This document shows, in pieces, positions 2,488-64,000 of a stretch of DNA of 64,000 nt. The stretch comes from Nemertoderma westbladi (Eukaryota > Animalia > Xenacoelomorpha), in assembly GCA_032718475.1 (NCBI GenBank), contig JAUCBJ010000640.1, positions 1-64,000 of the forward strand, read 5' to 3'. Positions within the stretch are counted from its first letter, which is position 1; each line of letters begins with the position of its first letter. The notes beneath the pieces were generated by a model, which had not been told where the DNA came from, did no database searches, and saw only the letters and a list, made by a program, of their open reading frames with translations. Both the position numbers and the translations under genes were made by a program.

Positions 2488-2622
2488 GACTAGGTATGTA
2501 CAGTTGAATGCCTACTGCTATATTACAGTCTAAGCAAGTCTAGTAACTCAGTATTAACTGCTAGCCTAGTAATTAATTACCGTTACTGCTACTCAGTGTA
2601 GCGTGATATATAATATATTATA

Positions 2623-4370: not shown

Positions 4371-4540
4371 TGTACAATCTGATCAGGTTTACACGCCTTC
4401 TGTTCAATACTGGCCTACAAATAAATAAAACTTGACAGAAATAAGTAAACCATATAAAGGAATAAGGGGTGATCAATCCCTAATCCCTTAAACAGCCTAC
4501 CGGTATACAACAATCAAATCGAATAATACTAGTGTACTTA

Positions 4541-4672
4541 TACGGAAGTACCGGTTAGGACAGCTAGGCCTATGGACCTACAGAAGTACCGGTTCTGGCA
4601 GTTGGACCTACGGACCTACGGCAGTACCGGTTCTAGCGGTTGGGCCTACTGACCTACAGATGTACTGGTTCA
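4541..4672. repeat. 38-bp diverged tandem repeat, about 3.5 copies, containing GTACCGGTT
   Basis: GAAGTACCGGTT at 4545 and 4583, GCAGTACCGGTT at 4621, GATGTACTGGTT at 4659; the first three are followed by G(G/A)CCTA..GACCTAC. Confidence 0.9.
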
Positions 4673-5332: not shown

Positions 5333-5350
5333 TTATTTCTCGTTATTCCA
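5333..5350 (-). other. Putative primer-binding site (TGGAATAACGAGAAATAA on the minus strand)
   Basis: TGG lies one base after a minus-strand ...TACA end, the usual LTR/PBS geometry. I could not match it to a specific tRNA 3' end. Confidence 0.35.
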
Positions 5351-5351
5351 A

Positions 5352-5979
5352 TGTAATAATTCATCAACAAATATAATGAATAACCGACAACAAATAGCAG
5401 TATACGGTATTGATTGAGCAGGTAATTTTAGCAGTTTCAGCAGTTATTAAAAGCCGTGTATCAGCAGGTATTATGCAGCAGTGACTACTGCAGTGCCGCA
5501 GATAAAGGATATATGTCCTTATAATTAAACCTACTAGTGGAGCTAAAAAGCAGAAAGCACAAAACACTAAAAAGCCGTTCTTTCGTGGCTTTGAAAAACT
5601 CGTGACTACTGCTCTATACGAGTATACCAACCACCCTTATTCCACGAAGCTCCCGTTCAACACAGAGAAAGAGCAGTGAGATAGGAAAATTTCAGTTCAG
5701 TAGCGCTGTGATAGGTCAAAATCAAGGCTAACTCAAATTCTATTGGGAGATACAAAAACAAGGCTATGACGCAACCTCCTTAGGCTTGGTGGCCGATTAA
5801 ACAGAGCCCAGATGCCTGCGTACAGCAAATCAGCCAATAAGCTGGTAACTTGCACTATTTTTAGCTATAGATCACTTTGAGAGTATTCTTAGCGACTGGG
5901 GGGGAACTGGCCAACAAGGCAAACGAATCAGTTATCCCACAAAAGCTTTTACACCAAGATTTTGGTGAAATTCACAACA
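5352..5979 (-). repeat. Putative 5' LTR (TGT...ACA); outer boundary not fixed (ACA at 5977-5979 or 6088-6090 are candidates)
   Basis: Begins TGTAAT at 5352 next to the PBS-like motif, is of typical LTR size and contains promoter-like motifs. No second copy is in the window to confirm it. Confidence 0.4.
5740..5870 (-). promoter_or_regulatory. Possible U3 promoter motifs in the putative LTR
   Basis: ATTGG at 5742, ATGACGCAA (CRE/C-EBP-like) at 5766-5774 and CAGCCAAT at 5831-5838. Short motifs only. Confidence 0.25.
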
Positions 5980-6104
5980 ACCAAGTCGAACTAATAATAA
6001 TAAATAAAACAATAAAAAAAAATAATAATGCAAGCTTAACTAAATAAATTATACCTCTAAGACTCTGATTCTGATATATATATAACTACATTTATTGAAA
6101 GCAG

Positions 6105-6222
6105 AAATTAAATTGGGCGACGAGACGGCAAACACTGTAGAAGATTGGGAAACTTGGAACATGAACCAATATCTGGAAGAGAAGAGGGAGGAAGTTTACA
6201 AAGAGACGTTTCTGGAGCAGAG
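6105..6222 (+). CDS. Putative internal coding exon (118 nt, phase 1 to phase 2) of an unidentified host gene
   Basis: Flanked by ...TTTATTGAAAGCAG and GTGAGT. Composition shifts from AT-rich low-complexity sequence to purine-rich coding-like sequence. Open frame reads xIKLGDETANTVEDWETWNMNQYLEEKREEVYKETFLEQR. The polypyrimidine tract is weak and the protein was not recognised. Confidence 0.6.
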
Positions 6223-6228
6223 GTGAGT
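6220..6228 (+). promoter_or_regulatory. 5' splice donor GAG|GTGAGT (GT at 6223-6224), also the start of satellite unit 1
   Basis: Matches the AG|GTRAGT consensus. Confidence 0.65.
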
Positions 6229-9200
6229 AAATAAAGAGAGAGTTTAGGTTAATATACATCCGAGGTGAGTAAATAAAGAGAGGGTTTAGGTTAATATACC
6301 CCCGAGGTGAGTAAATAAAGAGAGAGTTCAGGTTAATATACCCCCGAGGTGAGTAAATAAAGAGAGAGTTCAGGTTAATATACCTCCGAGGTGAGTAAAT
6401 AAAGAGAGAGTTTAGGTTAATATACCCCCGAGGTGAGTAAATAAAGAGAGAGTTTAGGTTAATATACCCCCGAGGTGAGTAAATAAAGAGAGAGTTTAGG
6501 TTAATATACCTCCGAGGTGAGTAAATAAAGAGAGAGTTTAGGTTAATATACCTCCGAGGTGAGTAAATAAAGAGAGAGTTTAGGTTAATATACCCCCGAG
6601 GTGAGTAAATAAAGAGAGAGTTTAGGTTAATATACCTCCGAGGTGAGTAAATAAAGAGAGAGTTTAGGTTAATATACCTCCGAGGTGAGTAAATAAAGAG
6701 AGAGTTTAGGTTAATATACCCCCGAGGTGAGTAAATAAAGAGAGAGTTTAGGTTAATATACCTCCGAGGTGAGTAAATAAAGAGAGAGTTTAGGTTAATA
6801 TACCCCCGAGGTGAGTAAATAAAGAGAGAGTTCAGGTTAATATACCCCGAGGTGAGTAAATAAAGAGAGAGTTCAGGTTAATATACCCCCGAGGTGAGTA
6901 AATAAAGAGAGAGTTCAGGTTAATATACCTCCGAGGTGAGTAAATAAAGAGAGAGTTCAGGTTAATATACCCCCGAGGTGAGTAAATAAAGAGAGAGTTT
7001 AGGTTAATATACCCCCGAGGTTAGTAAATAAAGAGAGAGTTCAGGTTAATATACCCCGAGGTGAGTAAATAAAGAGAGAGTTTAGGTTAATATACCCCGA
7101 GGTGAGTAAATAAAGAGAGAGTTTAGGTTAATATACCTCCGAGGTGAGTAAATAAAGAGAGAGTTCAGGTTAATATACCCCGAGGTGAGTAAATAAAGAG
7201 GGAGTTTAGGTTAATATACCCCCGAGGTGAGTAAATAAAGAGAGAGTTTAGGTTAATATACCCCGAGGTGAGTAAATAAAGAGAGAGTTTAGGTTAATAT
7301 ACCTCCGAGGTGAGTAAATAAAGAGAGAGTTCAGGTTAATATACCCCGAGGTGAGTAAATAAAGAGGGAGTTTAGGTTAATATACCCCCGAGGTGAGTAA
7401 ATAAAGAGAGAGTTTAGGTTAATATACCTCCGCGGTGAGTAAATAAAGAGAGAGTTTAGGTTAATATACCCCCGAGGTGAGTAAATAAAGAGAGAGTTTA
7501 GGTTAATATACCTCCGCGGTGAGTAAATAAAGAGAGAGTTTAGGTTAATATACCCCCGAGGTGAGTAAATAAAGAGAGAGTTCAGGTTAATATACCCCGA
7601 GGTGAGTAAATAAAGAGGGAGTTTAGGTTAATATACCCCCGAGGTGAGTAAATAAAGAGAGAGTTCAGGTTAATATACCCCGAGGTGAGTAAATAAAGAG
7701 AGAGTTTAGGTTAATATACCCCCGAGGTGAGTAAATAAAGAGAGAGTTTAGGTTAATATACCCCCGAGGTTAGTAAATAAAGAGAGAGTTTAGGTTAATA
7801 TACCCCCGAGGTGAGTAAATAAAGAGAGAGTTTAGGTTAATATACCTCCGAGGTGAGTAAATAAAGAGAGAGTTTAGGTTAATATACCCCCGAGGTGAGT
7901 AAATAAAGAGAGAGTTCAGGTTAATATACCCCGAGGTGAGTAAATAAAGAGAGAGTTTAGGTTAATATACCCCGAGGTGAGTAAATAGAGAGAGAGTTTA
8001 GGTTAATATACCTCCGAGGTGAGTAAATAAAGAGAGAGTTTAGGTTAATATACCTCCGAGGTGAGTAAATAAAGAGAGAGTTCAGGTTAATATACCCCGA
8101 GGTGAGTAAATAAAGAGGGAGTTTAGGTTAATATACCTCCGAGGTGAGTAAATAAAGAGAGAGTTCAGGTTAATATACCCCGAGGTGAGTAAATAAAGAG
8201 GGAGTTTAGGTTAATATACCTCCGAGGTGAGTAAATAAAGAGAGAGTTCAGGTTAATATACCCCGAGGTGAGTAAATAAAGAGGGAGTTTAGGTTAATAT
8301 ACCTCCGAGGTGAGTAAATAAAGAGAGAGTTCAGGTTAATATACCCCGAGGTGAGTAAATAAAGAGGGAGTTTAGGTTAATATACCTCCGAGGTGAGTAA
8401 ATAAAGAGAGAGTTCAGGTTAATATACCCCGAGGTGAGTAAATAGAGAGAGAGTTTAGGTTAATATACCTCCGAGGTGAGTAAATAAAGAGAGAGTTCAG
8501 GTTAATATACCCCGAGGTGAGTAAATAAAGAGGGAGTTTAGGTTAATATACCTCCGAGGTGAGTAAATAAAGAGAGAGTTTAGGTTAATATACCTCCGAG
8601 GTGAGTAAATAAAGAGAGAGTTTAGGTTAATATACCTCCGAGGTGAGTAAATAAAGAGAGAGTTCAGGTTAATATACCCCCGAGGTGAGTAAATAAAGAG
8701 AGAGTTTAGGTTAATATACCCCCGAGGTGAGTAAATAAAGAGAGAGTTTAGGTTAATATACCCCGAGGTGAGTAAATAAAGAGAGAGTTTAGGTTAATAT
8801 ACCTCCGAGGTGAGTAAATAAAGAGAGAGTTTAGGTTAATATACCTCCGAGGTGAGTAAATAAAGAGAGAGTTCAGGTTAATATACCCCGAGGTGAGTAA
8901 ATAAAGAGGGAGTTTAGGTTAATATACCTCCGAGGTGAGTAAATAAAGAGAGAGTTTAGGTTAATATACCTCCGAGGTGAGTAAATAAAGAGGGAGTTTA
9001 GGTTAATATACCTCCGAGGTGAGTAAATAAAGAGAGAGTTTAGGTTAATATACCTCCGAGGTGAGTAAATAAAGAGAGAGTTTAGGTTAATATACCTCCG
9101 AGGTGAGTAAATAAAGAGAGAGTTTAGGTTAATATACCTCCGAGGTGAGTAAATAAAGAGAGAGTTCAGGTTAATATACCCCGAGGTGAGTAAATAAAGA

Positions 9201-12200: not shown

Positions 12201-15200
12201 GAGGGAGTTTAGGTTAATATACCTCCGAGGTGAGTAAATAAAGAGAGAGTTTAGGTTAATATACCTCCGAGGTGAGTAAATAAAGAGGGAGTTTAGGTTA
12301 ATATACCTCCGAGGTGAGTAAATAAAGAGAGAGTTCAGGTTAATATACCCCGAGGTGAGTAAATAAAGAGAGAGTTTAGGTTAATATACCTCCGAGGTGA
12401 GTAAATAAAGAGAGAGTTCAGGTTAATATACCCCGAGGTGAGTAAATAAAGAGGGAGTTTAGGTTAATATACCTCCGAGGTGAGTAAATAAAGAGAGAGT
12501 TCAGGTTAATATACCCCGAGGTGAGTAAATAAAGAGAGAGTTTAGGTTAATATACCCCCGAGGTGAGTAAATAAAGAGAGAGTTTAGGTTAATATACCTC
12601 CGAGGTGAGTAAATAAAGAGGGAGTTTAGGTTAATATACCTCCGAGGTGAGTAAATAAAGAGAGAGTTCAGGTTAATATACCTCCGAGGTGAGTAAATAA
12701 AGAGAGAGTTCAGGTTAATATACCTCCGAGGTGAGTAAATAAAGAGAGAGTTTAGGTTAATATACCTCCGAGGTGAGTAAATAAAGAGGGAGTTTAGGTT
12801 AATATACCTCCGAGGTGAGTAAATAAAGAGAGAGTTCAGGTTAATATACCCCCGAGGTGAGTAAATAAAGAGAGAGTTTAGGTTAATATACCCCCGAGGT
12901 GAGTAAATAAAGAGAGAGTTTAGGTTAATATACCTCCGAGGTGAGTAAATAAAGAGGGAGTTTAGGTTAATATACCTCCGAGGTGAGTAAATAAAGAGAG
13001 AGTTTAGGTTAATATACCCCCGAGGTGAGTAAATAAAGAGAGAGTTCAGGTTAATATACCCCGAGGTGAGTAAATAAAGAGGGAGTTTAGGTTAATATAC
13101 CTCCGAGGTGAGTAAATAAAGAGGGAGTTTAGGTTAATATACCTCCGAGGTGAGTAAATAAAGAGAGAGTTTAGGTTAATATACCCCCGAGGTGAGTAAA
13201 TAAAGAGAGAGTTCAGGTTAATATACCCCGAGGTGAGTAAATAAAGAGAGAGTTTAGGTTAATATACCCCCGAGGTGAGTAAATAAAGAGAGAGTTCAGG
13301 TTAATATACCCCGAGGTGAGTAAATAAAGAGGGAGTTTAGGTTAATATACCTCCGAGGTGAGTAAATAAAGAGAGAGTTCAGGTTAATATACCCCGAGGT
13401 GAGTAAATAAAGAGAGAGTTTAGGTTAATATACCCCGAGGTGAGTAAATAAAGAGAGAGTTTAGGTTAATATACCTCCGAGGTGAGTAAATAAAGAGAGA
13501 GTTCAGGTTAATATACCCCCGAGGTGAGTAAATAAAGAGAGAGTTTAGGTTAATATACCTCCGAGGTGAGTAAATAAAGAGGGAGTTTAGGTTAATATAC
13601 CTCCGAGGTGAGTAAATAAAGAGAGAGTTCAGGTTAATACACCCCGAGGTGAGTAAATAAAGAGAGAGTTTAGGTTAATATACCCCCGAGGTGAGTAAAT
13701 AAAGAGAGAGTTCAGGTTAATATACCCCCGAGGTGAGTAAATAAAGAGAGAGTTTAGGTTAATATACCCCCGAGGTGAGTAAATAAAGAGAGAGTTTAGG
13801 TTAATATACCTCCGAGGTGAGTAAATAAAGAGAGAGTTTAGGTTAATATACCCCCGAGGTGAGTAAATAAAGAGAGAGTTTAGGTTAATATACCCCCGAG
13901 GTGAGTAAATAAAGAGAGAGTTTAGGTTAATATACCTCCGCGGTGAGTAAATAAAGAGAGAGTTTAGGTTAATATACCCCCGAGGTGAGTAAATAAAGAG
14001 AGAGTTTAGGTTAATATACCCCCGAGGTGAGTAAATAAAGAGAGAGTTTAGGTTAATATACCCCCGAGGTGAGTAAATAAAGAGAGAGTTCAGGTTAATA
14101 TACCTCCGAGGTGAGTAAATAAAGAGAGAGTTCAGGTTAATATACCCCGAGGTGAGTAAATAAAGAGGGAGTTTAGGTTAATATACCTCCGAGGTGAGTA
14201 AATAAAGAGAGAGTTCAGGTTAATATACCTCCGAGGTGAGTAAATAAAGAGAGAGTTTAGGTTAATATACCCCCGAGGTGAGTAAATAAAGAGAGAGTTT
14301 AGGTTAATATACCCCCGAGGTGAGTAAATAAAGAGAGAGTTCAGGTTAATATACCTCCGAGATGAGTAAATAAAGAGAGAGTTCAGGTTAATATACCTCC
14401 GAGGTGAGTAAATAAAGAGAGAGTTTAGGTTAATATACCCCGAGGTGAGTAAATAAAGAGAGAGTTTAGGTTAATATACCCCCGAGGTGAGTAAATAAAG
14501 AGAGAGTTTAGGTTAATATACCCCCGAGGTGAGTAAATAAAGAGAGAGTTTAGGTTAATATACCCCGAGGTGAGTAAATAAAGAGAGAGTTTAGGTTAAT
14601 ATACCCCCGAGGTGAGTAAATAAAGAGAGAGTTTAGGTTAATATACCCCCGAGGTGAGTAAATAAAGAGAGAGTTTAGGTTAATATACCCCCGAGGTTAG
14701 TAAATAAAGAGAGAGTTTAGGTTAATATACCTCCGAGGTGAGTAAATAAAGAGAGAGTTCAGGTTAATATACCCCGAGGTGAGTAAATAAAGAGAGAGTT
14801 TAGGTTAATATACCTCCGAGGTGAGTAAATAAAGAGAGAGTTTAGGTTAATATACCCCGAGGTTAGTAAATAAAGAGAGAGTTTAGGTTAATATACCCCC
14901 GAGGTGAGTAAATAAAGAGGGAGTAGTTCAGGTTAATATAACTCCGAGGTGAGTAAATAAAGAGGGAGTTTAGGTTAATATACCCCCGAGGTGAGTAAAT
15001 AAAGAGGGAGTTTAGGTTAATATACCCCCGAGGTGAGTAAATAAAGAGAGAGTTTAGGTTAATATACCCCCGAGGTGAGTAAATAAAGAGAGAGTAGTTC
15101 AGGTTAATATACCCCCGAGGTGAGTAAATAAAGAGAGAGTTTAGGTTAATATACCCCCGAGGTGAGTAAATAAAGAGAGAGTTCAGGTTAATATACCCCC

Positions 15201-18200
15201 GAGGTGAGTAAATAAAGAGAGAGTTTAGGTTAATATACCTCCGAGGTGAGTAAATAAAGAGAGAGTTTAGGTTAATATACCCCCGAGGTGAGTAAATAAA
15301 GAGAGAGTTTAGGTTAATATACCTCCGAGGTGAGTAAATAAAGAGGGAGTTTAGGTTAATATACCCCCGAGGTGAGTAAATAAAGAGAGAGTTTAGGTTA
15401 ATATACCCCCGAGGTGAGTAAATAAAGAGAGAGTTTAGGTTAATATACCCCCGAGGTGAGTAAATAAAGAGAGAGTTCAGGTTAATATACCTCCGAGATG
15501 AGTAAATAAAGAGAGAGTTCAGGTTAATATACCTCCGAGGTGAGTAAATAAAGAGAGAGTTTAGGTTAATATACCCCGAGGTGAGTAAATAAAGAGAGAG
15601 TTTAGGTTAATATACCCCCGAGGTGAGTAAATAAAGAGAGAGTTCAGGTTAATATACCTCCGAGATGAGTAAATAAAGAGAGAGTTCAGGTTAATATACC
15701 TCCGAGGTGAGTAAATAAAGAGAGAGTTTAGGTTAATATACCCCGAGGTGAGTAAATAAAGAGAGAGTTTAGGTTAATATACCCCCGAGGTGAGTAAATA
15801 AAGAGAGAGTAGTTCAGGTTAATATACCCCCGAGGTGAGTAAATAAAGAGAGAGTTTAGGTTAATATACCCCCGAGGTGAGTAAATAAAGAGAGAGTTCA
15901 GGTTAATATACCTCCGAGATGAGTAAATAAAGAGAGAGTTCAGGTTAATATACCTCCGAGGTGAGTAAATAAAGAGAGAGTTTAGGTTAATATACCTCCG
16001 AGGTGAGTAAATAAAGAGAGAGTTTAGGTTAATATACCCCCGAGGTGAGTAAATAAAGAGAGAGTTTAGGTTAATATACCCCCGAGGTGAGTAAATAAAG
16101 AGAGAGTTCAGGTTAATATACCTCCGAGGTGAGTAAATAAAGAGGGAGTAGTTCAGGTTAATATACCCCCGAGGTGAGTAAATAAAGAGAGAGTTTAGGT
16201 TAATATACCTCCGAGGTGAGTAAATAAAGAGAGAGTTCAGGTTAATATACCTCCGAGATGAGTAAATAAAGAGAGAGTTCAGGTTAATATACCTCCGAGG
16301 TGAGTAAATAAAGAGAGAGTTTAGGTTAATATACCCCCGAGGTGAGTAAATAAAGAGAGAGTTTAGGTTAATATACCCCCGAGGTGAGTAAATAAAGAGA
16401 GAGTTCAGGTTAATATACCTCCGAGGTGAGTAAATAAAGAGGGAGTAGTTCAGGTTAATATACCCCCGAGGTGAGTAAATAAAGAGAGAGTTTAGGTTAA
16501 TATACCTCCGAGGTGAGTAAATAAAGAGGGAGTAGTTCAGGTTAATATACCTCCGAGGTGAGTAAATAAAGAGAGAGTTCAGGTTAATATACCTCCGAGG
16601 TGAGTAAATAAAGAGGGAGTAGTTCAGGTTAATATACTTCCGAGGTGAGTAAATAAAGAGAGAGTAGTTCAGGTTAATATACTTCCGAGGTGAGTAAATA
16701 AAGAGAGAGTAGTTCAGGTTAATATACCTCCGAGGTGAGTAAATAAAGAGGGAGTTTAGGTTAATATACCCCCGAGGTGAGTAAATAAAGAGAGAGTTTA
16801 GGTTAATATACCTCCGAGGTGAGTAAATAAAGAGAGAGTTTAGGTTAATATACCTCCGAGGTGAGTAAATAAAGAGAGAGTTTAGGTTAATATACCTCCG
16901 AGGTGAGTAAATAAAGAGAGAGTTTAGGTTAATATACCCCCGAGGTGAGTAAATAAAGAGAGAGTTCAGGTTAATATACCTCCGAGGTGAGTAAATAAAG
17001 AGGGAGTAGTTCAGGTTAATATACCCCCGAGGTGAGTAAATAAAGAGAGAGTTCAGGTTAATATACCCCCGAGGTGAGTAAATAAAGAGAGAGTTCAGGT
17101 TAATATACCCCCGAGGTGAGTAAATAAAGAGAGAGTTCAGGTTAATATACCCCCGAGGTGAGTAAATAAAGAGAGAGTTCAGGTTAATATACCCCCGAGG
17201 TGAGTAAATAAAGAGAGAGTTCAGGTTAATATACCTCCGAGGTGAGTAAATAAAGAGGGAGTAGTTCAGGTTAATATACCCCCGAGGTGAGTAAATAAAG
17301 AGAGAGTTCAGGTTAATATACCTCCGAGGTGAGTAAATAAAGAGAGAGTTTAGGTTAATATACCCCCGAGGTGAGTAAATAAAGAGAGAGTTTAGGTTAA
17401 TATACCTCCGAGGTGAGTAAATAAAGAGGGAGTAGTTCAGGTTAATATACCTCCGAGGTGAGTAAATAAAGAGAGAGTTTAGGTTAATATACCCCCGAGG
17501 TGAGTAAATAAAGAGAGAGTTTAGGTTAATATACCCCCGAGGTGAGTAAATAAAGAGAGAGTTCAGGTTAATATACCTCCGAGGTGAGTAAATAAAGAGG
17601 GAGTAGTTCAGGTTAATATACTTCCGAGGTGAGTAAATAAAGAGAGAGTAGTTCAGGTTAATATACCTCCGAGGTGAGTAAATAAAGAGGGAGTTTAGGT
17701 TAATATACCCCCGAGGTGAGTAAATAAAGAGAGAGTTTAGGTTAATATACCTCCGAGGTGAGTAAATAAAGAGGGAGTAGTTCAGGTTAATATACTTCCG
17801 AGGTGAGTAAATAAAGAGAGAGTAGTTCAGGTTAATATACCTCCGAGGTGAGTAAATAAAGAGGGAGTTTAGGTTAATATACCCCCGAGGTGAGTAAATA
17901 AAGAGAGAGTTTAGGTTAATATACCTCCGAGGTGAGTAAATAAAGAGAGAGTTTAGGTTAATATACCTCCGAGGTGAGTAAATAAAGAGAGAGTTTAGGT
18001 TAATATACCCCCGAGGTGAGTAAATAAAGAGGGAGTTTAGGTTAATATACCCCCGAGGTGAGTAAATAAAGAGGGAGTAGTTCAGGTTAATATACCCCCG
18101 AGGTGAGTAAATAAAGAGAGAGTTTAGGTTAATATACCTCCGAGGTGAGTAAATAAAGAGGGAGTAGTTCAGGTTAATATACCCCCGAGGTGAGTAAATA

Positions 18201-21200
18201 AAGAGAGAGTTTAGGTTAATATACCTCCGAGGTGAGTAAATAAAGAGAGAGTTTAGGTTAATATACCTCCGAGGTGAGTAAATAAAGAGGGAGTAGTTTA
18301 GGTTAATATACCTCCGAGGTGAGTAAATAAAGAGGGAGTAGTTCAGGTTAATATACCTCCGAGGTGAGTAAATAAAGAGGGAGTTTAGGTTAATATACCC
18401 CCGAGGTGAGTAAATAAAGAGAGAGTTTAGGTTAATATACCCCCGAGGTGAGTAAATAAAGAGAGAGTTTAGGTTAATATACCTCCGAGGTGAGTAAATA
18501 AAGAGAGAGTTCAGGTTAATATACCCCCGAGGTGAGTAAATAAAGAGGGAGTAGTTCAGGTTAATATACCTCCGAGGTGAGTAAATAAAGAGGGAGTTTA
18601 GGTTAATATACCCCCGAGGTGAGTAAATAAAGAGAGAGTTTAGGTTAATATACCCCCGAGGTGAGTAAATAAAGAGAGAGTTTAGGTTAATATACCTCCG
18701 AGGTGAGTAAATAAAGAGAGAGTTCAGGTTAATATACCCCCGAGGTGAGTAAATAAAGAGGGAGTTCAGGTTAATATACCTCCGATGTGAGTAAATAAAG
18801 AGAGAGTTTAGGTTAATATACCCCCGAGGTGAGTAAATAAAGAGGGAGTAGTTCAGGTTAATATACCCCGAGGTGAGTAAATAAAGAGGGAGTTCAGGTT
18901 AATATACCTCCGATGTGAGTAAATAAAGAGAGAGTTTAGGTTAATATACCCCCGAGGTGAGTAAATAAAGAGGGAGTAGTTCAGGTTAATATACCTCCGC
19001 GGTGAGTAAATAAAGAGAGAGTTTAGGTTAATATACCTCCGAGGTGAGTAAATAAAGAGAGAGTTTAGGTTAATATACCTCCGAGGTGAGTAAATAAAGA
19101 GAGAGTTTAGGTTAATATACCCCCGAGGTGAGTAAATAAAGAGAGAGTTTAGGTTAATATACCTCCGAGGTGAGTAAATAAAGAGAGAGTTTAGGTTAAT
19201 ATACCCCCGAGGTGAGTAAATAAAGAGAGAGTTTAGGTTAATATACCTCCGAGGTGAGTAAATAAAGAGAGAGTTTAGGTTAATATACCCCCGAGGTGAG
19301 TAAATAAAGAGGGAGTAGTTCAGGTTAATATACCCCGAGGTGAGTAAATAAAGAGAGAGTTCAGGTTAATATACCTCCGAGGTGAGTAAATAAAGAGAGA
19401 GTTTAGGTTAATATACCCCCGAGGTGAGTAAATAAAGAGGGAGTAGTTCAGGTTAATATACCCCCGAGGTGAGTAAATAAAGAGGGAGTTTAGGTTAATA
19501 TACCTCCGAGGTGAGTAAATAAAGAGAGAGTTTAGGTTAATATACCCCCGAGGTGAGTAAATAAAGAGAGAGTTCAGGTTAATATACCTCCGAGGTGAGT
19601 AAATAAAGAGAGAGTTTAGGTTAATATACCCCGAGGTGAGTAAATAAAGAGAGAGTTTAGGTTAATATACCTCCGAGGTGAGTAAATAAAGAGGGAGTAG
19701 TTCAGGTTAATATACTTCCGAGGTGAGTAAATAAAGAGGGAGTTTAGGTTAATATACCCCCGAGGTGAGTAAATAAAGAGAGAGTAGTTCAGGTTAATAT
19801 ACCCCCGAGGTGAGTAAATAAAGAGAGAGTTTAGGTTAATATACCTCCGAGGTGAGTAAATAAAGAGGGAGTTTAGGTTAATATACCTCCGAGGTGAGTA
19901 AATAAAGAGAGAGTAGTTCAGGTTAATATACCCCCGAGGTGAGTAAATAAAGAGAGAGTTTAGGTTAATATACCTCCGAGGTGAGTAAATAAAGAGGGAG
20001 TTTAGGTTAATATACCCCCGAGGTGAGTAAATAAAGAGAGAGTAGTTCAGGTTAATATACCCCCGAGGTGAGTAAATAAAGAGAGAGTTTAGGTTAATAT
20101 ACCCCCGAGGTGAGTAAATAAAGAGAGAGTTTAGGTTAATATACCCCCGAGGTGAGTAAATAAAGAGAGAGTTCAGGTTAATATACCTCCGAGGTGAGTA
20201 AATAAAGAGAGAGTTTAGGTTAATATACCCCGAGGTGAGTAAATAAAGAGAGAGTTTAGGTTAATATACCCCCGAGGTGAGTAAATAAAGAGAGAGTAGT
20301 TCAGGTTAATATACCCCCGAGGTGAGTAAATAAAGAGAGAGTTTAGGTTAATATACCCCCGAGGTGAGTAAATAAAGAGAGAGTTTAGGTTAATATACCC
20401 CCGAGGTGAGTAAATAAAGAGAGAGTTCAGGTTAATATACCTCCGAGGTGAGTAAATAAAGAGAGAGTTTAGGTTAATATACCTCCGAGGTGAGTAAATA
20501 AAGAGAGAGTTTAGGTTAATATACCTCCGAGGTGAGTAAATAAAGAGAGAGTTTAGGTTAATATACCCCGAGGTGAGTAAATAAAGAGGGAGTAGTTCAG
20601 GTTAATATACCTCCGAGGTGAGTAAATAAAGAGAGAGTTTAGGTTAATATACCTCCGAGGTGAGTAAATAAAGAGAGAGTTTAGGTTAATATACCCCGAG
20701 GTGAGTAAATAAAGAGGGAGTAGTTCAGGTTAATATACCTCCGAGGTGAGTAAATAAAGAGGGAGTAGTTCAGGTTAATATACCCCGAGGTGAGTAAATA
20801 AAGAGGGAGTTTAGGTTAATATACCCCCGAGGTGAGTAAATAAAGAGGGAGTAGTTCAGGTTAATATACCTCCGAGGTGAGTAAATAAAGAGGGAGTAGT
20901 TCAGGTTAATATACTTCCGAGGTGAGTAAATAAAGAGAGAGTTCAGGTTAATATACCCCCGAGGTGAGTAAATAAAGAGGGAGTTTAGGTTAATATACCC
21001 CGAGGTGAGTAAATAAAGAGGGAGTAGTTCAGGTTAATATACTTCCGAGGTGAGTAAATAAAGAGAGAGTTCAGGTTAATATACCCCCGAGGTGAGTAAA
21101 TAAAGAGAGAGTTTAGGTTAATATACCCCGAGGTGAGTAAATAAAGAGGGAGTAGTTCAGGTTAATATACCTCCGAGGTGAGTAAATAAAGAGAGAGTTT

Positions 21201-24200
21201 AGGTTAATATACCTCCGAGGTGAGTAAATAAAGAGAGAGTTTAGGTTAATATACCTCCGAGGTGAGTAAATAAAGAGAGAGTTCAGGTTAATATACCTCC
21301 GAGGTGAGTAAATAAAGAGAGAGTTTAGGTTAATATACCTCCGAGGTGAGTAAATAAAGAGAGAGTTTAGGTTAATATACCCCCGAGGTGAGTAAATAAA
21401 GAGAGAGTTTAGGTTAATATACCCCCGATGTGAGTAAATAAAGAGAGAGTTTAGGTTAATATACCCCCGAGGTGAGTAAATAAAGAGAGAGTTCAGGTTA
21501 ATATACCTCCGAGATGAGTAAATAAAGAGAGAGTTCAGGTTAATATACCTCCGAGGTGAGTAAATAAAGAGAGAGTTTAGGTTAATATACCTCCGAGGTG
21601 AGTAAATAAAGAGAGAGTTTAGGTTAATATACCTCCGAGGTGAGTAAATAAAGAGGGAGTAGTTCAGGTTAATATACTTCCGAGGTGAGTAAATAAAGAG
21701 AGAGTTTAGGTTAATATACCCCCGAGGTGAGTAAATAAAGAGGGAGTTTAGGTTAATATACCCCCGAGGTGAGTAAATAAAGAGAGAGTTTAGGTTAATA
21801 TACCTCCGAGGTGAGTAAATAAAGAGGGAGTTCAGGTTAATATACCTCCGAGGTGAGTAAATAAAGAGAGAGTTTAGGTTAATATACCCCCGAGGTGAGT
21901 AAATAAAGAGGGAGTTTAGGTTAATATACCCCGAGGTGAGTAAATAAAGAGAGAGTTCAGGTTAATATACCTCCGAGGTGAGTAAATAAAGAGAGAGTTT
22001 AGGTTAATATACCCCCGAGGTGAGTAAATAAAGAGAGAGTTTAGGTTAATATACCCCCGAGGTGAGTAAATAAAGAGAGAGTTTAGGTTAATATACCCCC
22101 GAGGTGAGTAAATAAAGAGAGAGTTTAGGTTAATATACCCCCGAGGTGAGTAAATAAAGAGAGAGTTTAGGTTAATATACCCCCGAGGTGAGTAAATAAA
22201 GAGAGAGTTCAGGTTAATATACCTCCGAGATGAGTAAATAAAGAGAGAGTTCAGGTTAATATACCTCCGAGGTGAGTAAATAAAGAGAGAGTTTAGGTTA
22301 ATATACCTCCGAGGTGAGTAAATAAAGAGAGAGTTTAGGTTAATATACCCCCGAGGTGAGTAAATAAAGAGGGAGTAGTTCAGGTTAATATACCTCCGAG
22401 GTGAGTAAATAAAGAGAGAGTTTAGGTTAATATACCTCCGAGGTGAGTAAATAAAGAGGGAGTTCAGGTTAATATACCCCCGAGGTGAGTAAATAAAGAG
22501 GGAGTAGTTCAGGTTAATATACCTCCGCGGTGAGTAAATAAAGAGAGAGTTTAGGTTAATATACCTCCGAGGTGAGTAAATAAAGAGAGAGTTTAGGTTA
22601 ATATACCCCCGAGGTGAGTAAATAAAGAGGGAGTTTAGGTTAATATACCTCCGAGGTGAGTAAATAAAGAGAGAGTTTAGGTTAATATACCCCCGAGGTG
22701 AGTAAATAAAGAGAGAGTTTAGGTTAATATACCTCCGAGGTGAGTAAATAAAGAGAGAGTAGTTCAGGTTAATATACCCCCGAGGTGAGTAAATAAAGAG
22801 AGAGTTTAGGTTAATATACCTCCGAGGTGAGTAAATAAAGAGAGAGTTTAGGTTAATATACCTCCGAGGTGAGTAAATAAAGAGAGAGTTTAGGTTAATA
22901 TACCTCCGAGGTGAGTAAATAAAGAGAGAGTTTAGGTTAATATACCCCCGAGGTGAGTAAATAAAGAGAGAGTTTAGGTTAATATACCTCCGAGGTGAGT
23001 AAATAAAGAGAGAGTAGTTCAGGTTAATATACCTCCGCGGTGAGTAAATAAAGAGAGAGTTTAGGTTAATATACCTCCGAGGTGAGTAAATAAAGAGAGA
23101 GTTTAGGTTAATATACCTCCGAGGTGAGTAAATAAAGAGAGAGTTTAGGTTAATATACCCCCGAGGTGAGTAAATAAAGAGAGAGTTTAGGTTAATATAC
23201 CTCCGAGGTGAGTAAATAAAGAGAGAGTAGTTCAGGTTAATATACCCCCGAGGTGAGTAAATAAAGAGAGAGTTTAGGTTAATATACCTCCGAGGTGAGT
23301 AAATAAAGAGGGAGTTTAGGTTAATATACCCCCGAGGTGAGTAAATAAAGAGAGAGTTTAGGTTAATATACCCCCGAGGTGAGTAAATAAAGAGAGAGTT
23401 TAGGTTAATATACCTCCGAGGTGAGTAAATAAAGAGAGAGTAGTTCAGGTTAATATACCCCCGAGGTGAGTAAATAAAGAGAGAGTTTAGGTTAATATAC
23501 CTCCGACGTGAGTAAATAAAGAGAGAGTTTAGGTTAATATACCTCCGAGGTGAGTAAATAAAGAGAGAGTTTAGGTTAATATACCCCCGAGGTGAGTAAA
23601 TAAAGAGAGAGTTTAGGTTAATATACCTCCGAGGTGAGTAAATAAAGAGGGAGTTTAGGTTAATATACCCCCGAGGTGAGTAAATAAAGAGAGAGTTTAG
23701 GTTAATATACCTCCGAGGTGAGTAAATAAAGAGAGAGTTTAGGTTAATATACCTCCGAGGTGAGTAAATAAAGAGAGAGTAGTTCAGGTTAATATACCTC
23801 CGAGGTGAGTAAATAAAGAGAGAGTAGTTCAGGTTAATATACCCCCGAGGTGAGTAAATAAAGAGAGAGTTTAGGTTAATATACCTCCGAGGTGAGTAAA
23901 TAAAGAGGGAGTTTAGGTTAATATACCCCCGAGGTGAGTAAATAAAGAGAGAGTTTAGGTTAATATACCTCCGAGGTGAGTAAATAAAGAGAGAGTTTAG
24001 GTTAATATACCCCCGAGGTGAGTAAATAAAGAGAGAGTTTAGGTTAATATACCCCCGAGGTGAGTAAATAAAGAGAGAGTTTAGGTTAATATACCCCCGA
24101 GGTGAGTAAATAAAGAGAGAGTTCAGGTTAATATACCTCCGAGATGAGTAAATAAAGAGAGAGTTCAGGTTAATATACCTCCGAGGTGAGTAAATAAAGA

Positions 24201-45200: not shown

Positions 45201-48200
45201 AAAGAGAGAGTTCAGGTTAATATACCTCCGAGGTGAGTAAATAAAGAGGGAGTAGTTCAGGTTAATATACCTCCGAGGTGAGTAAATAAAGAGAGAGTTC
45301 AGGTTAATATACCCCCGAGGTGAGTAAATAAAGAGAGAGTTTAGGTTAATATACCTCCGAGGTGAGTAAATAAAGAGAGAGTTTAGGTTAATATACCCCC
45401 GAGGTGAGTAAATAAAGAGGGAGTAGTTCAGGTTAATATACCTCCGAGGTGAGTAAATAAAGAGAGAGTTTAGGTTAATATACCTCCGAGGTGAGTAAAT
45501 AAAGAGGGAGTTTAGGTTAATATACCTCCGAGGTGAGTAAATAAAGAGGGAGTTTAGGTTAATATACCCCCGAGGTGAGTAAATAAAGAGAGAGTTTAGG
45601 TTAATATACCTCCGAGGTGAGTAAATAAAGAGAGAGTTTAGGTTAATATACCCCCGAGGTGAGTAAATAAAGAGAGAGTTTAGGTTAATATACCCCCGAG
45701 GTGAGTAAATAAAGAGGGAGTAGTTCAGGTTAATATACCCCCGAGGTGAGTAAATAAAGAGAGAGTTTAGGTTAATATACCCCCGAGGTGAGTAAATAAA
45801 GAGGGAGTTTAGGTTAATATACCTCCGAGGTGAGTAAATAAAGAGAGAGTTTAGGTTAATATACCCCCGAGGTGAGTAAATAAAGAGAGAGTTTAGGTTA
45901 ATATACCCCCGAGGTGAGTAAATAAAGAGGGAGTTTAGGTTAATATACCCCCGAGGTGAGTAAATAAAGAGAGAGTTTAGGTTAATATACCTCCGAGGTG
46001 AGTAAATAAAGAGAGAGTTTAGGTTAATATACCCCCGAGGTGAGTAAATAAAGAGAGAGTTTAGGTTAATATACCCCCGAGGTGAGTAAATAAAGAGGGA
46101 GTAGTTCAGGTTAATATACCCCCGAGGTGAGTAAATAAAGAGAGAGTTTAGGTTAATATACCCCCGAGGTGAGTAAATAAAGAGGGAGTTTAGGTTAATA
46201 TACCTCCGAGGTGAGTAAATAAAGAGAGAGTTTAGGTTAATATACCTCCGAGGTGAGTAAATAAAGAGGGAGTTTAGGTTAATATACCTCCGAGGTGAGT
46301 AAATAAAGAGAGAGTAGTTCAGGTTAATATACCTCCGAGGTGAGTAAATAAAGAGAGAGTTTAGGTTAATATACCTCCGAGGTGAGTAAATAAAGAGGGA
46401 GTTTAGGTTAATATACCTCCGAGGTGAGTAAATAAAGAGAGAGTTTAGGTTAATATACCTCCGAGGTGAGTAAATAAAGAGAGAGTTTAGGTTAATATAC
46501 CTCCGAGGTGAGTAAATAAAGAGGGAGTTTAGGTTAATATACCTCCGAGGTGAGTAAATAAAGAGAGAGTTTAGGTTAATATACCTCCGAGGTGATTAAA
46601 TAAAGAGAGAGTAGTTCAGGTTAATATACCCCCGAGGTGAGTAAATAAAGAGAGAGTTTAGGTTAATATACCTCCGAGGTGAGTAAATAAAGAGGGAGTT
46701 TAGGTTAATATACCCCCGAGGTGAGTAAATAAAGAGGGAGTTTAGGTTAATATACCCCCGAGGTGAGTAAATAAAGAGGGAATTTAGGTTAATATACCCC
46801 CGAGGTGAGTAAATAAAGAGAGAGTTTAGGTTAATATACCCCCGAGGTGAGTAAATAAAGAGGGAGTTTAGGTTAATATACCCCCGAGGTGAGTAAATAA
46901 AGAGAGAGTTTAGGTTAATATACCTCCGAGGTGAGTAAATAAAGAGAGAGTTCAGGTTAATATACCTCCGAGGTGAGTAAATAAAGAGGGAGTAGTTCAG
47001 GTTAATATACCTCCGAGGTGAGTAAATAAAGAGAGAGTAGTTCAGGTTAATATACCCCCGAGGTGAGTAAATAAAGAGGGAGTAGTTCAGGTTAATATAC
47101 CTCCGAGGTGAGTAAATAAAGAGAGAGTTCAGGTTAATATACCTCCGAGGTGAGTAAATAAAGAGAGAGTTTAGGTTAATATACCCCCGAGGTGAGTAAA
47201 TAAAGAGGGAGTAGTTCAGGTTAATATACCTCCGAGGTGAGTAAATAAAGAGAGAGTTTAGGTTAATATACCTCCGAGGTGAGTAAATAAAGAGGGAGTA
47301 GTTCAGGTTAATATACCCCCGAGGTGAGTAAATAAAGAGGGAGTAGTTCAGGTTAATATACCCCCGAGGTGAGTAAATAAAGAGAGAGTTTAGGTTAATA
47401 TACCTCCGAGGTGAGTAAATAAAGAGAGAGTTTAGGTTAATATACCTCCGAGGTGAGTAAATAAAGAGAGAGTTCAGGTTAATATACCCCCGAGGTGAGT
47501 AAATAAAGAGAGAGTTTAGGTTAATATACCTCCGAGGTGAGTAAATAAAGAGGGAGTTTAGGTTAATATACCCCCGAGGTGAGTAAATAAAGAGAGAGTT
47601 TAGGTTAATATACCTCCGAGGCGAGTAAATAAAGAGGGAGTTTAGGTTAATATACCTCCGAGGTGAGTAAATAAAGAGGGAGTTTAGGTTAATATACCTC
47701 CGAGGTGAGTAAATAAAGAGGGAGTTTAGGTTAATATACCCCCGAGGTGAGTAAATAAAGAGGGAGTTTAGGTTAATATACCTCCGAGGTGAGTAAATAA
47801 AGAGGGAGTTTAGGTTAATATACCCCCGAGGTGAGTAAATAAAGAGGGAGTTTAGGTTAATATACCTCCGAGGTGAGTAAATAAAGAGGGAGTTTAGGTT
47901 AATATACCTCCGAGGTGAGTAAATAAAGAGGGAGTTTAGGTTAATATACCCCCGAGGTGAGTAAATAAAGAGAGAGTTTAGGTTAATATACCTCCGAGGT
48001 GAGTAAATAAAGAGGGAGTTTAGGTTAATATACCTCCGAGGTGAGTAAATAAAGAGGGAGTTTAGGTTAATATACCTCCGAGGTGAGTAAATAAAGAGGG
48101 AGTTTAGGTTAATATACCCCCGAGGTGAGTAAATAAAGAGAGAGTTTAGGTTAATATACCCCCGAGGTGAGTAAATAAAGAGAGAGTTTAGGTTAATATA

Positions 48201-60200: not shown

Positions 60201-63200
60201 AGGTGAGTAAATAAAGAGGGAGTTTAGGTTAATATACCCCCGAGGTGAGTAAATAAAGAGGGAGTTTAGGTTAATATACCCCCGAGGTGAGTAAATAAAG
60301 AGAGAGTTTAGGTTAATATACCTCCGAGGTGAGTAAATAAAGAGGGAGTAGTTCAGGTTAATATGCCTCCGAGGTGAGTAAATAAAGAGGGAGTAGTTCA
60401 GGTTAATATACCTTCGAGGTGAGTAAATAAAGAGGGAGTTTAGGTTAATATACCTCCGAGGTGAGTAAATAAAGAGGGAGTTTAGGTTAATATACCCCCG
60501 AGGTGAGTAAATAAAGAGGGAGTTTAGGTTAATATACCTCCGAGGTGAGTAAATAAAGAGAGAGTTTAGGTTAATATACCTCCGAGGTGAGTAAATAAAG
60601 AGGGAGTTTAGGTTAATATACCCCCGAGGTGAGTAAATAAAGAGAGAGTTTAGGTTAATATACCTCCGAGGTGAGTAAATAAAGAGAGAGTTTAGGTTAA
60701 TATACCTCCGAGGTGAGTAAATAAAGAGGGAGTTTAGGTTAATATACCCCCGAGGTGAGTAAATAAAGAGAGAGTTTAGGTTAATATACCTCCGAGGTGA
60801 GTAAATAAAGAGAGAGTTCAGGTTAATATACCTCCGAGGTGAGTAAATAAAGAGGGAGTAGTTCAGGTTAATATACCTCCGAGGTGAGTAAATAAAGAGG
60901 GAGTTCAGGTTAATATACCCCCGAGGTGAGTAAATAAAGAGAGAGTTTAGGTTAATATACCTCCGAGGTGAGTAAATAAAGAGAGAGTTTAGGTTAATAT
61001 ACCTCCGAGGTGAGTAAATAAAGAGAGAGTTTAGGTTAATATACCTCCGAGGTGAGTAAATAAAGAGAGAGTTCAGGTTAATATACCTCCGAGGTGAGTA
61101 AATAAAGAGAGAGTTTAGGTTAATATACCTCCGAGGTGAGTAAATAAAGAGAGAGTTTAGGTTAATATACCTCCGAGGTGAGTAAATAAAGAGGGAGTAG
61201 TTCAGGTTAATATACCTCCGAGGTGAGTAAATAAAGAGAGAGTAGTTCAGGTTAATATACCCCCGAGGTGAGTAAATAAAGAGAGAGTTTAGGTTAATAT
61301 ACCTCCGAGGTGAGTAAATAAAGAGAGAGTTTAGGTTAATATACCTCCGAGGTGAGTAAATAAAGAGAGAGTTTAGGTTAATATACCTCCGAGGTGAGTA
61401 AATAAAGAGAGAGTTTAGGTTAATATACCTCCGAGGTGAGTAAATAAAGAGAGAGTTTAGGTTAATATACCCCCGAGGTGAGTAAATAAAGAGAGAGTTT
61501 AGGTTAATATACCTCCGAGGTGAGTAAATAAAGAGAGAGTTTAGGTTAATATACCTCCGAGGTGAGTAAATAAAGAGAGAGTTTAGGTTAATATACCTCC
61601 GAGGTGAGTAAATAAAGAGAGAGTTTAGGTTAATATACCTCCGAGGTGAGTAAATAAAGAGAGAGTTTAGGTTAATATACCCCCGAGGTGAGTAAATAAA
61701 GAGAGAGTTCAGGTTAATATACCTCCGAGGTGAGTAAATAAAGAGAGAGTTTAGGTTAATATACCCCCGAGGTGAGTAAATAAAGAGAGAGTTTAGGTTA
61801 ATATACCTCCGAGGTGAGTAAATAAAGAGAGAGTTTAGGTTAATATACCTCCGAGGTGAGTAAATAAAGAGAGAGTTTAGGTTAATATACCTCCGAGGTG
61901 AGTAAATAAAGAGAGAGTTTAGGTTAATATACCTCCGAGGTGAGTAAATAAAGAGAGAGTTTAGGTTAATATACCTCCGAGGTGAGTAAATAAAGAGAGA
62001 GTTTAGGTTAATATACCCCCGAGGTGAGTAAATAAAGAGAGAGTTTAGGTTAATATACCCCCGAGGTGAGTAAATAAAGAGAGAGTTTAGGTTAATATAC
62101 CTCCGAGGTGAGTAAATAAAGAGAGAGTTTAGGTTAATATACCTCCGAGGTGAGTAAATAAAGAGAGAGTTTAGGTTAATATACCTCCGAGGTGAGTAAA
62201 TAAAGAGAGAGTTTAGGTTAATATACCTCCGAGGTGAGTAAATAAAGAGAGAGTTTAGGTTAATATACCTCCGAGGTGAGTAAATAAAGAGAGAGTTTAG
62301 GTTAATATACCCCCGAGGTGAGTAAATAAAGAGAGAGTTTAGGTTAATATACCCCCGAGGTGAGTAAATAAAGAGAGAGTTTAGGTTAATATACCTCCGA
62401 GGTGAGTAAATAAAGAGAGAGTTTAGGTTAATATACCCCCGAGGTGAGTAAATAAAGAGAGAGTTTAGGTTAATATACCCCCGAGGTGAGTAAATAAAGA
62501 GAGAGTTTAGGTTAATATACCTCCGAGGTGAGTAAATAAAGAGAGAGTTTAGGTTAATATACCCCCGAGGTGAGTAAATAAAGAGAGAGTTCAGGTTAAC
62601 ATACCCCCGAGGTGAGTAAATAAAGAGAGAGTTTAGGTTAATATACCTCCGAGGTGAGTAAATAAAGAGAGAGTTTAGGTTAATATACCCCCGAGGTGAG
62701 TAAATAAAGAGAGAGTTTAGGTTAATATACCTCCGAGGTGAGTAAATAAAGAGAGAGTTTAGGTTAATATACCCCCGAGGTGAGTAAATAAAGAGAGAGT
62801 TCAGGTTAATATACCTCCGAGGTGAGTAAATAAAGAGAGAGTTTAGGTTAATATACCCCCGAGGTGAGTAAATAAAGAGAGAGTTTAGGTTAATATACCT
62901 CCGAGGTGAGTAAATAAAGAGGGAGTAGTTCAGGTTAATATACCTCCGAGGTGAGTAAATAAAGAGGGAGTTCAGGTTAATATACCCCCGAGGTGAGTAA
63001 ATAAAGAGAGAGTTTAGGTTAATATACCTCCGAGGTGAGTAAATAAAGAGAGAGTTTAGGTTAATATACCCCCGAGGTGAGTAAATAAAGAGAGAGTTTA
63101 GGTTAATATACCCCCGAGGTGAGTAAATAAAGAGAGAGTTCAGGTTAATATACCCCCGAGGTGAGTAAATAAAGATATAGTTCAGGTTAATATACCTCCG

Positions 63201-64000
63201 AGGTGAGTAAATAAAGAGGGAGTTCAGGTTAATATACCCCCGAGGTGAGTAAATAAAGATATAGTTCAGGTTAATATACCTCCGAGGTGAGTAAATAAAG
63301 AGAGAGTAGTTCAGGTTAATATACCTCCGAGGTGAGTAAATAAAGAGGGAGTTCAGGTTAATATACCCCCGAGGTGAGTAAATAAAGATATAGTTCAGGT
63401 TAATATACCTCCGAGGTGAGTAAATAAAGAGGGAGTTCAGGTTAATATACCCCCGAGGTGAGTAAATAAAGAGAGAGTAGTTCAGGTTAATATACCTCCG
63501 AGGTGAGTAAATAAAGAGGGAGTTTAGGTTAATATACCTCCGAGGTGAGTAAATAAAGAGGGAGTAGTTCAGGTTAATATACCTCCGAGGTGAGTAAATA
63601 AAGAGGGAGTAGTTCAGGTTAATATACCTCCGAGGTGAGTAAATAAAGAGGGAGTTTAGGTTAATATACCCCCGAGGTGAGTAAATAAAGAGAGAGTAGT
63701 TCAGGTTAATATACCTCCGAGGTGAGTAAATAAAGAGGGAGTTTAGGTTAATATACCTCCGAGGTGAGTAAATAAAGAGGGAGTAGTTCAGGTTAATATA
63801 CCTCCGAGGTGAGTAAATAAAGAGGGAGTAGTTCAGGTTAATATACCTCCGAGGTGAGTAAATAAAGAGGGAGTTTAGGTTAATATACCTCCGAGGTGAG
63901 TAAATAAAGAGGGAGTAGTTTAGGTTAATATACCTCCGAGGTGAGTAAATAAAGAGGGAGTTCAGGTTAATATACCCCCGAGGTGAGTAAATAAAGATAT
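6220..64000. repeat. Giant minisatellite/satellite array, 42-bp unit GAGGTGAGTAAATAAAGAG(A/G)GAG[TAG]TT(T/C)AGGTTAATATACC(T/C)CC, roughly 1,350 copies, open at the right edge
   Basis: Period 42 (AGGTGAG at 6221, 6263, 6305). Common variants are A/G, T/C, T/C, a 1-bp C deletion (41 bp) and a 3-bp insertion (45 bp). All units are head-to-tail; I saw no inversion or foreign insertion. Copy number is estimated from length. Confidence 0.99.

What the first reader, a model, noticed from the sequence alone, without database searches (positions are those of the whole stretch)
6105..64000. A >57 kb satellite born from an exon-intron junction: ~1,350 tandem copies of a 5' splice site
Seen: the array starts precisely at the 3' end of a coding-like exon. 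Unit 1 is the exon's last bases (GAG) plus its donor GTGAGT and the following intronic bases, and nearly every later unit repeats GAG|GTGAGT. The common polymorphisms all lie outside the donor; hits to it (GAGATG, GATGTG, GCGGTG, GTTAGT, GTCAGT) are rare. Established: AG|GTGAGT is a near-optimal U1 snRNA site. Inference: this is a giant intron built by amplifying its own donor, so the spliceosome must choose the first of >1,000 equivalent donors. Using any later donor would add AGG TGA, an in-frame stop, making the mRNA an NMD target. The pre-mRNA could act as a U1 sponge or a length-tunable splicing/expression rheostat, analogous to satellite-filled giant introns of Drosophila Y fertility genes.
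Basis: partly seen in the sequence, partly recalled or inferred. Interest (0 to 1): 0.8.

Follow-up and report, generated by a model that had tools for sequence, protein, structure and literature searches.

The report
Giant splice-donor satellite, unverified exon
A 42-base piece carrying a textbook splice signal is repeated about 1,360 times over at least 58 kb right behind a likely, but unproven, exon of an unidentified animal gene, so this is likely a very large, tolerated example of a repeat type already known from lancelet and human genes rather than a control device.

Summary
The array is real: 1,360 units of 42/45/41 bp from 6220 to the window's end. GAG|GTGAGT is intact in 1,317 of 1,359 full units, and local block duplications argue against an assembly artefact. 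The build (3 exon + 39 intron bases) closely matches the human F7 intron-7 VNTR (4 + 33) and lancelet 'mirages', where the first donor is mostly or only used. The exon at 6105-6222 is plausible but unproven: the frame is open, there is a weak CAG acceptor and GC steps from 19% to 43%, but no homologue or transcript was found. The claim that donors are protected fails: they vary as much as the rest of the unit or more, so nothing supports a U1 sponge or rheostat. The scan has found this before on other DNA: 16 notes seen in this genome (up to ~2,100 copies, most in named genes) and 4 in other genomes; all are unchecked AI notes. Verdict: likely a new, very large member of a known kind, and a weakly anchored one.

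The parts
6105..6222 (+). Candidate internal exon, 118 nt, phase 1 to phase 2, reading (E)IKLGDETANTVEDWETWNMNQYLEEKREEVYKETFLEQ(R); gene unidentified
   Evidence: Open frame 6086-6223; GC 43% against 19% in 5991-6104; no homologue
6099..6104 (+). Candidate acceptor, AAG-CAG tandem pair; pyrimidine tract weak (9 of 20)
   Evidence: sequence
6220..6228 (+). First donor GAG|GTGAGT, cut after 6222; also the start of unit 1
6224..6226 (+). In-frame TGA met on reading past the first donor
6230..6235 (+). AATAAA at donor +8..+13, repeated in 1,355 of 1,359 full units
6220..6261 (+). Unit 1: 3 exon-side bases plus 39 intron-side bases; carries a private variant found in no other unit
6220..64000 (+). 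Satellite array, 1,360 units of 42/45/41 bp, at least 57.8 kb, running off the window
1..2511 (-). Context: 837-codon open frame, gag-like, of a likely BEL/Pao LTR retrotransposon upstream of the candidate exon
   Evidence: weak DUF1759 match E 0.0094, below Pfam's cut-off

Best explanation
A 42-bp unit made of the last 3 bases of a likely exon, its splice donor and 33 further likely intronic bases is repeated about 1,360 times; it was likely amplified by slippage and unequal exchange into a likely tolerated 'mirage'-type intronic satellite in which splicing would use the first donor. Shown: the array, the donor match in 97% of units, local block duplications, regional variants and the in-frame stop behind the first donor. 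Inferred: that 6105-6222 is a live exon; that a short GAG repeat 42 bases apart seeded the first duplication; and that the most upstream donor wins, as in F7, with rare use of later donors giving stop-containing mRNA that is suppressed or degraded. The copies of the donor and of AATAAA would be passengers of the unit, kept alike by repeat turnover and not by selection.
For: The array boundary falls 3 bases before the cut site of the only strong + strand donor in 1-6230. A shuffled unit holds AG|GTRAGT on either strand in 0.5% of 20,000 shuffles (AG|GTRAG 1.7%), and a 39-codon open frame ends at a given point about 22% of the time. With the boundary position, the joint chance is roughly 3e-4 to 9e-4 (post hoc). 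The same build is published: the F7 IVS7 monomer is 4 exon + 33 intron bases and only the most upstream donor is used (PMC1557585); lancelet mirages do not disturb splicing (PMC3087553; PMC3902484). Turnover signature: an identical run of 34 units at 9308 and 11100, against 5-8 in 20 shuffles; all 15 GAGATG donors lie in 14359-26646; the edge unit has a private variant, as described for mirage clusters. No excess conservation of the donor: 9 distinct substitutions in 9 positions against 19 in 33, binomial p 0.94 for fewer and 0.13 for more.
Against: The exon has no homologue in Pfam, PDB, the ESM Atlas, 1.84 billion representatives or two word-index searches; a 40-residue query is weak, but nothing positive anchors it. 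The acceptor is weak. The open frame alone is common (22%). The upstream 6 kb looks transposon-derived and shows no other exon. The finding was selected for this pattern, which inflates the joint-chance figure. AATAAA next to a 5' splice site is reported to be counter-selected in introns (PMC5499120). The far end of the intron is outside the window. Published arrays have at most about 25 copies, and in IFI6 and CBS two later donors are also used, so 'first donor only' is extrapolated.
Confidence: 0.68

Rival explanations
1. 6105-6222 is not a live exon (a dead gene piece, transposon-borne sequence or a chance open frame), and the array is an ordinary satellite whose unit holds a donor-like 9-mer as a relic or by chance; nothing is spliced here.
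For: No homologue in any search; weak acceptor; open frames of this length are common; the neighbourhood is repeat-derived: 306 contigs of run X1, most under 99% alike, lie on 1-6090, and there is a weak DUF1759 match.
Against: A near-perfect donor exactly at the array edge is unlikely by chance. There is a sharp GC step from 19% to 43% at the acceptor. Unchecked notes report the same build at real exons of many named genes in this genome (a lead, not support).
Confidence: 0.17
2. The exon is a last or composite exon: some or all transcripts read through the donor to the TGA at 6224-6226 and are cleaved behind the AATAAA at 6230-6235, so the unit is an amplified stop-plus-poly(A) module and the array either lies beyond the gene's end or sets a splice-or-terminate choice.
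For: TGA is followed three bases later by AATAAA; the hexamer is in 1,355 of 1,359 units. AATAAA is reported to be selected against beside intronic 5' splice sites.
Against: AATAAA arises in 6.5% of shuffles of this A-rich unit, against 0.5% for the full donor, so the donor is the rarer signal. The hexamer is no better kept than AGGTTAATA (1,356). No clear U/GU-rich downstream element is visible. Bound U1 would cover -2..+7 and abut the hexamer (recalled), which should suppress cleavage.
Confidence: 0.08
3. One reading: the transcribed array acts as a U1 sponge or a length-tuned splicing and expression rheostat, kept by selection.
For: 1,318 strong donor matches on the presumed sense strand; at least 58 kb would add transcription time (inference); satellite-filled giant introns are transcribed and need special RNA-binding proteins in Drosophila (PMC6508621 abstract).
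Against: Donor positions are not better kept than the rest of the unit, and donor-killing variants have spread by block duplication. About 1,300 sites on a few nascent transcripts are small against some 10^5-10^6 U1 particles per nucleus (recalled figure for mammalian cells). Internal donors are not specially masked or exposed compared with shuffled controls.
Confidence: 0.04
4. The length is an assembly artefact (a short repeat over-expanded).
For: Units are very alike (mean 1.3 differences per 42-nt unit); no raw reads could be laid across the array.
Against: 61 distinct units in a non-periodic mosaic, with regional variants and gradients along the array, and no long exact repetition beyond 34 units.
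Confidence: 0.03

Closest known systems
Human F7 intron 7 37-bp VNTR, with the IFI6 (6-16), CBS, lamin B2 and PDGF arrays it cites (Borensztajn et al. 2006, PMC1557585; abstract, Introduction passages and Discussion read)
   Same: The first monomer spans the exon-intron boundary (4 exon + 33 intron bases; here 3 + 39), so the donor is repeated down the intron; later donors are silent or rarely used.
   Different: 5-25 copies there, about 1,360 here (over 50 times more); there the exon and its splicing are proven, here they are not; here each unit also holds AATAAA.
Lancelet 'mirage' minisatellites (Adh3, globins BflGb6/BflGb9, troponin C, PGBD5; PMC3087553 and PMC3902484, matching passages read; the original Adh3 paper not read)
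   Same: Tandem copies of an exon-intron boundary, units of 10-160 bp, concerted evolution with distinct edge units, no disturbance of splicing reported.
   Different: The examples with copy numbers in the passages read have 3-6 copies; this array is satellite-scale (at least 57.8 kb) and carries only 3 exon-side bases.
Satellite-filled giant introns of Drosophila Y fertility genes kl-3 and kl-5 (PMC6508621; abstract read)
   Same: A long satellite tract would lie inside an intron and be transcribed.
   Different: Those are megabases of simple satellites, with dedicated RNA-binding proteins; they are not described as built from the gene's own donor; here neither transcription nor the intron's end is known.
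Latent 5' splice sites and suppression of splicing (PMC1524910, PMC3510495; search listing with start of abstract only)
   Same: Intronic donor matches preceded by an in-frame stop are abundant and normally unused.
   Different: Those are scattered single sites; here they are more than 1,300 identical ones in a row.

Membership tests
Junction-spanning minisatellite ('mirage', F7 type) | Head-to-tail repeat of a short unit (10-160 bp) | tested here: met
   42/45/41-bp units, 1,360 copies
Junction-spanning minisatellite ('mirage', F7 type) | Each unit repeats the splice signal | tested here: met
   GAG|GTGAGT in 1,317 of 1,359 full units
Junction-spanning minisatellite ('mirage', F7 type) | The first monomer spans a real exon-intron boundary | tested here: inconclusive
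   Exon-like anatomy but no homologue and no transcript seen
Junction-spanning minisatellite ('mirage', F7 type) | mRNA is spliced at the first donor | not testable with these tools
   No RNA holder of the exon was listed
Junction-spanning minisatellite ('mirage', F7 type) | Concerted turnover inside the array, edge unit apart | tested here: met
   34-unit duplicated block, regional variants, private variant in unit 1; only the left edge is visible
Junction-spanning minisatellite ('mirage', F7 type) | Copy number differs between alleles | not testable with these tools
   One haplotype only; no whole genome held
Drosophila Y-type gigantic intron | Megabase-scale intron | tested here: inconclusive
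   At least 57.8 kb; the end lies outside the window
Drosophila Y-type gigantic intron | Filled with simple satellite repeats | tested here: not met
   The unit is a complex 42/45-mer; the abstract of PMC6508621 describes simple satellites
Drosophila Y-type gigantic intron | Transcribed in a dedicated germ-line programme | not testable with these tools
   No tissue RNA available
Selected U1-binding array (sponge or rheostat) | Donor positions better conserved than the rest of the unit | tested here: not met
   9 substitutions in 9 positions against 19 in 33; 1,317 intact against 1,353-1,356 for invariant non-donor 9-mers

The most novel reading that the evidence does not exclude
Each unit is a paired module, a strong U1 site with AATAAA directly behind it, so the intron is a run of about 1,350 poly(A) signals each guarded by its own U1 site: a natural telescripting gauntlet in which U1 supply and array length set how many transcripts are cut short after the in-frame stop rather than spliced, giving a tunable switch between a truncated and a full-length protein.
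Probability: 0.06. Interest if true: 0.65.

Novelty: new member of a known kind. Interest (0 to 1): 0.2.

Why it matters
As a single locus it is ordinary in kind and unusual only in size. If the exon is real, it extends the 'first donor wins' rule from 5-25 copies to more than 1,300 and gives a natural test of it, and of U1 protection against a poly(A) signal placed right behind a donor. The more interesting question is genome-wide: why this animal, by the scan's unchecked notes, turns many of its splice donors into satellites. Loci with a named gene and spliced RNA are better entry points than this one.

Tried and rejected
Whole genome: none held, so dispersal of the unit and the downstream exon could not be checked. 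Homologue searches with the 39-46-residue peptide: Pfam none; word-index search none among proteins of 71-2000 and 22-70 residues; phmmer on 1.84 billion representatives 0 at E 0.001; ESM Atlas no usable hit; PDB one chance-level hit, ribosomal L17, E 0.53, rejected. The locus search needs 48 residues and could not be run. Sequencing runs: no RNA holder listed; one run, X1, kind guessed. 306 of its contigs lie on 1-6300, with depth in 29 of 30 bins and none in 6091-6300, and 0 lie on 6034-6262 at 80%; by the tool's own caveat this blank is no evidence either way. The five joints lie in the upstream repeat and none has GT..AG ends on the + strand. The 38-nt unit core has 0 exact matches in viral and metagenome contigs; these collections do not cover the host genome. 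Longer exon contribution to the unit: best local match of 7-9 nt, p 0.06-0.52 for the 8 commonest units, rejected. Masking of later donors by RNA structure: predicted opening energy 0.87 kcal/mol for donor 1 and 0.90 for donor 2, against a median of 3.96 for units 3-402 (3% as low) and 4.05 for 191 sampled later units (4 as low). Shuffled tiled controls give a median of 3.85 with 7% as low, so no specific masking is shown. Coding by the minus strand: one frame is open up to 4,511 codons (33063-46595, no Met), but 97% of shuffled units have an open frame, rejected. Fixed higher-order repeat: no autocorrelation peak (0.17-0.21 at the top lags and at lags 1-12, base 0.13). Micro-intron plus 17-nt micro-exon per unit, or recursive splice points at TTYAG|GTTAAT: considered from the sequence; the 17-nt piece shifts the frame into a stop and the second donor is weak; not pursued. 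Rfam on 1-6700: one chance hit, E 0.79. Identity of the upstream ORF: no hit; only the weak DUF1759 match. An Atlas query for 5770-5877 could not be run. Paper searches for giant arrays of this build found only the lancelet papers; the library lacks most subscription journals.

Full report
Observation. Tandem Repeats Finder reports one array at 6220-63997, period 42, 1,359 copies, 94% matches. My own parse finds 1,360 unit starts from 6220 to 63980; the 1,359 full units are mostly 42 nt (1,028), 45 nt (248) or 41 nt (75), with 61 distinct sequences and 376 copies of the commonest. No foreign insertion interrupts it. GAG|GTGAGT is intact in 1,317 of 1,359 full units; AGGTRAGT occurs 1,318 times in the window against 24.5 expected, and the first occurrence is at the array's first unit.

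The array is real DNA, not a collapsed or padded repeat, as far as one sequence can show. Variants form a non-periodic mosaic with regional character: 41-nt units make up 28% of the first tenth and 0-2% of most middle tenths; all 15 GAGATG donors lie between 14359 and 26646; the longest identical block is 34 units (9308 and 11100) against 5-8 in 20 shuffles; there is no fixed higher-order period. Unit 1 has a private variant. This is the pattern of slippage and unequal exchange, with an edge unit left out of homogenisation, as described for lancelet mirage clusters (PMC3087553, passages).

Are the donors protected? No. The common polymorphisms (three substitutions, a 3-nt insertion and a 1-nt deletion) do lie outside the donor, but five sites miss a 9-of-42 stretch with chance 0.28. 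The nine donor positions carry 9 distinct substitutions against 19 in the other 33 (binomial p 0.94 for fewer, 0.13 for more); a few changes in the 44-46-nt units may be hidden in alignment gaps. Non-donor 9-mers starting at unit positions 10 and 27-30 are intact in 1,353-1,356 units, more than the donor. A GT-to-AT variant that should kill the donor has been copied 15 times. The uniformity is that of a young, homogenised repeat.

Is 6105-6222 an exon? For: an open frame 6086-6223 giving an ordinary-looking acidic peptide; 118 nt between an AAG-CAG acceptor pair and the donor; GC 43% against 19% in the 114 bases before; the only strong + strand donor in the first 6.2 kb by my three patterns. 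A shuffled unit contains AG|GTRAGT on either strand in 0.5% of trials, and an open frame of 39 codons precedes a given point in about 22%; with the boundary position the product is 3e-4 to 9e-4, a post hoc figure for a finding selected on this pattern. Against: the pyrimidine tract is weak (9 of 20), and no search found a relative, though 40 residues of a fast-evolving animal protein are a weak query. The one listed run does not cover the exon, which counts neither way. Only GAG is shared between the exon end and the unit; a longer likeness is not significant. The 6 kb upstream look like transposon sequence: an 837-codon minus-strand frame with a weak DUF1759 match at its window-side end (E 0.0094, below cut-off), the gag domain typical of BEL/Pao elements (recalled), and many diverged copies in run X1. 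I put the chance of a live exon at about three in four.

Mechanism. Shown: the anatomy above, and that reading past donor 1 gives AGG TGA, so use of any later donor includes a stop. Inferred: a 42-base stretch bounded by GAG on both sides was duplicated by slippage and then amplified by unequal exchange; splicing takes the most upstream donor. [quoted passage not shown] In IFI6 and CBS two later sites are also used; in lamin B2 and PDGF only the first (PMC1557585; abstract, Introduction passages and Discussion). Lancelet mirages likewise do not disturb splicing. Donor-like sites behind an in-frame stop are common and normally unused in mammalian introns (listing of PMC1524910 and PMC3510495). 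Folding predicts donors 1 and 2 to be more open (0.87 and 0.90 kcal/mol) than internal ones (median about 4), but shuffled controls give the same spread, so this is at most a mild help and no designed masking.

Each unit has AATAAA at donor +8 to +13 (1,355 of 1,359), three bases after the in-frame TGA. This permits a composite or terminal-exon reading. AATAAA is reported to be counter-selected most strongly next to 5' splice sites (PMC5499120; abstract and section 11), which makes the feature worth a look. But the hexamer arises in 6.5% of shuffles of this A-rich unit, is no better kept than other invariant parts, and would sit beside a bound U1 (recalled), so I treat it as a passenger and give the functional version 6-8%.

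The U1-sponge and rheostat ideas have no support here: there is no selection on donors, and about 1,300 sites on a few nascent transcripts are small against the nuclear U1 pool (recalled). The Drosophila Y introns are megabases of simple satellite with their own RNA-binding proteins (PMC6508621, abstract); the likeness is limited to 'satellite in an intron'.

Comparison and novelty. It works like, and probably is, a junction-spanning minisatellite of the F7 or mirage kind. Membership is met for the repeat, the repeated donor and the turnover pattern, inconclusive for the exon, and untestable for splicing and allele length. Its size is over 50 times that of the published cases I read (at most about 25 copies). 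Four paper searches showed no description of satellite-scale examples; subscription journals are largely missing from the library, the original Adh3 paper was not read, and no supplements were opened. The scan's own notes list 16 different findings of this build in the same genome among those shown (8 rows a call, of 79 notes), some as large or larger (about 1,300 copies in GALNS, about 2,100 in a nuclear receptor), and 4 in other genomes. These notes gave me the comparison with mirages and F7, which I then checked in the papers; their claims about other loci are unchecked. One note guesses an acoel; I did not establish the organism, and the passages matched in an acoel genome paper do not mention such arrays (PMC9911081).

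Verdict. Observation largely confirmed, exon unproven, functional interpretation not supported. New, very large member of a known kind; interest 0.2.

Noticed in passing
window 1-2511 (-): 837-codon open frame running off the window's start, with a 15-residue coiled-coil-like repeat (45-bp tandem at 1135-1316) and a weak DUF1759 match: likely gag of a BEL/Pao LTR retrotransposon; multi-copy by run X1.
   Followed up: partly
window 5352-5664: TG...CA-bounded stretch, followed on the minus strand by T-TGG like a primer-binding site; an X1 contig ends at 5351. Possibly the element's 5' LTR, leaving a long (~2.8 kb) leader with 288-bp and 38-bp tandem repeats.
   Followed up: partly
window 5770-5970 (+): Short broken frames that resemble, by recalled motif only, the integrase zinc-binding region of BEL/Pao pol; Pfam gave no match.
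   Followed up: partly
window 6246 onward, every unit: TTTAG|GT or TTCAG|GT (852 and 505 of 1,359 units): an acceptor-like AG directly followed by a weak GT, resembling a recursive splice point, 25-28 nt after each donor.
   Followed up: partly
window 33063-46595 (-): One minus-strand frame of the array is open for 4,511 codons of a 14/15-residue repeat, without Met; expected by chance for such a unit.
   Followed up: yes
window 2570-2861 and 4499-4680: Repeated TACCGGT-type palindromic motifs in the presumed element leader.
   Followed up: no
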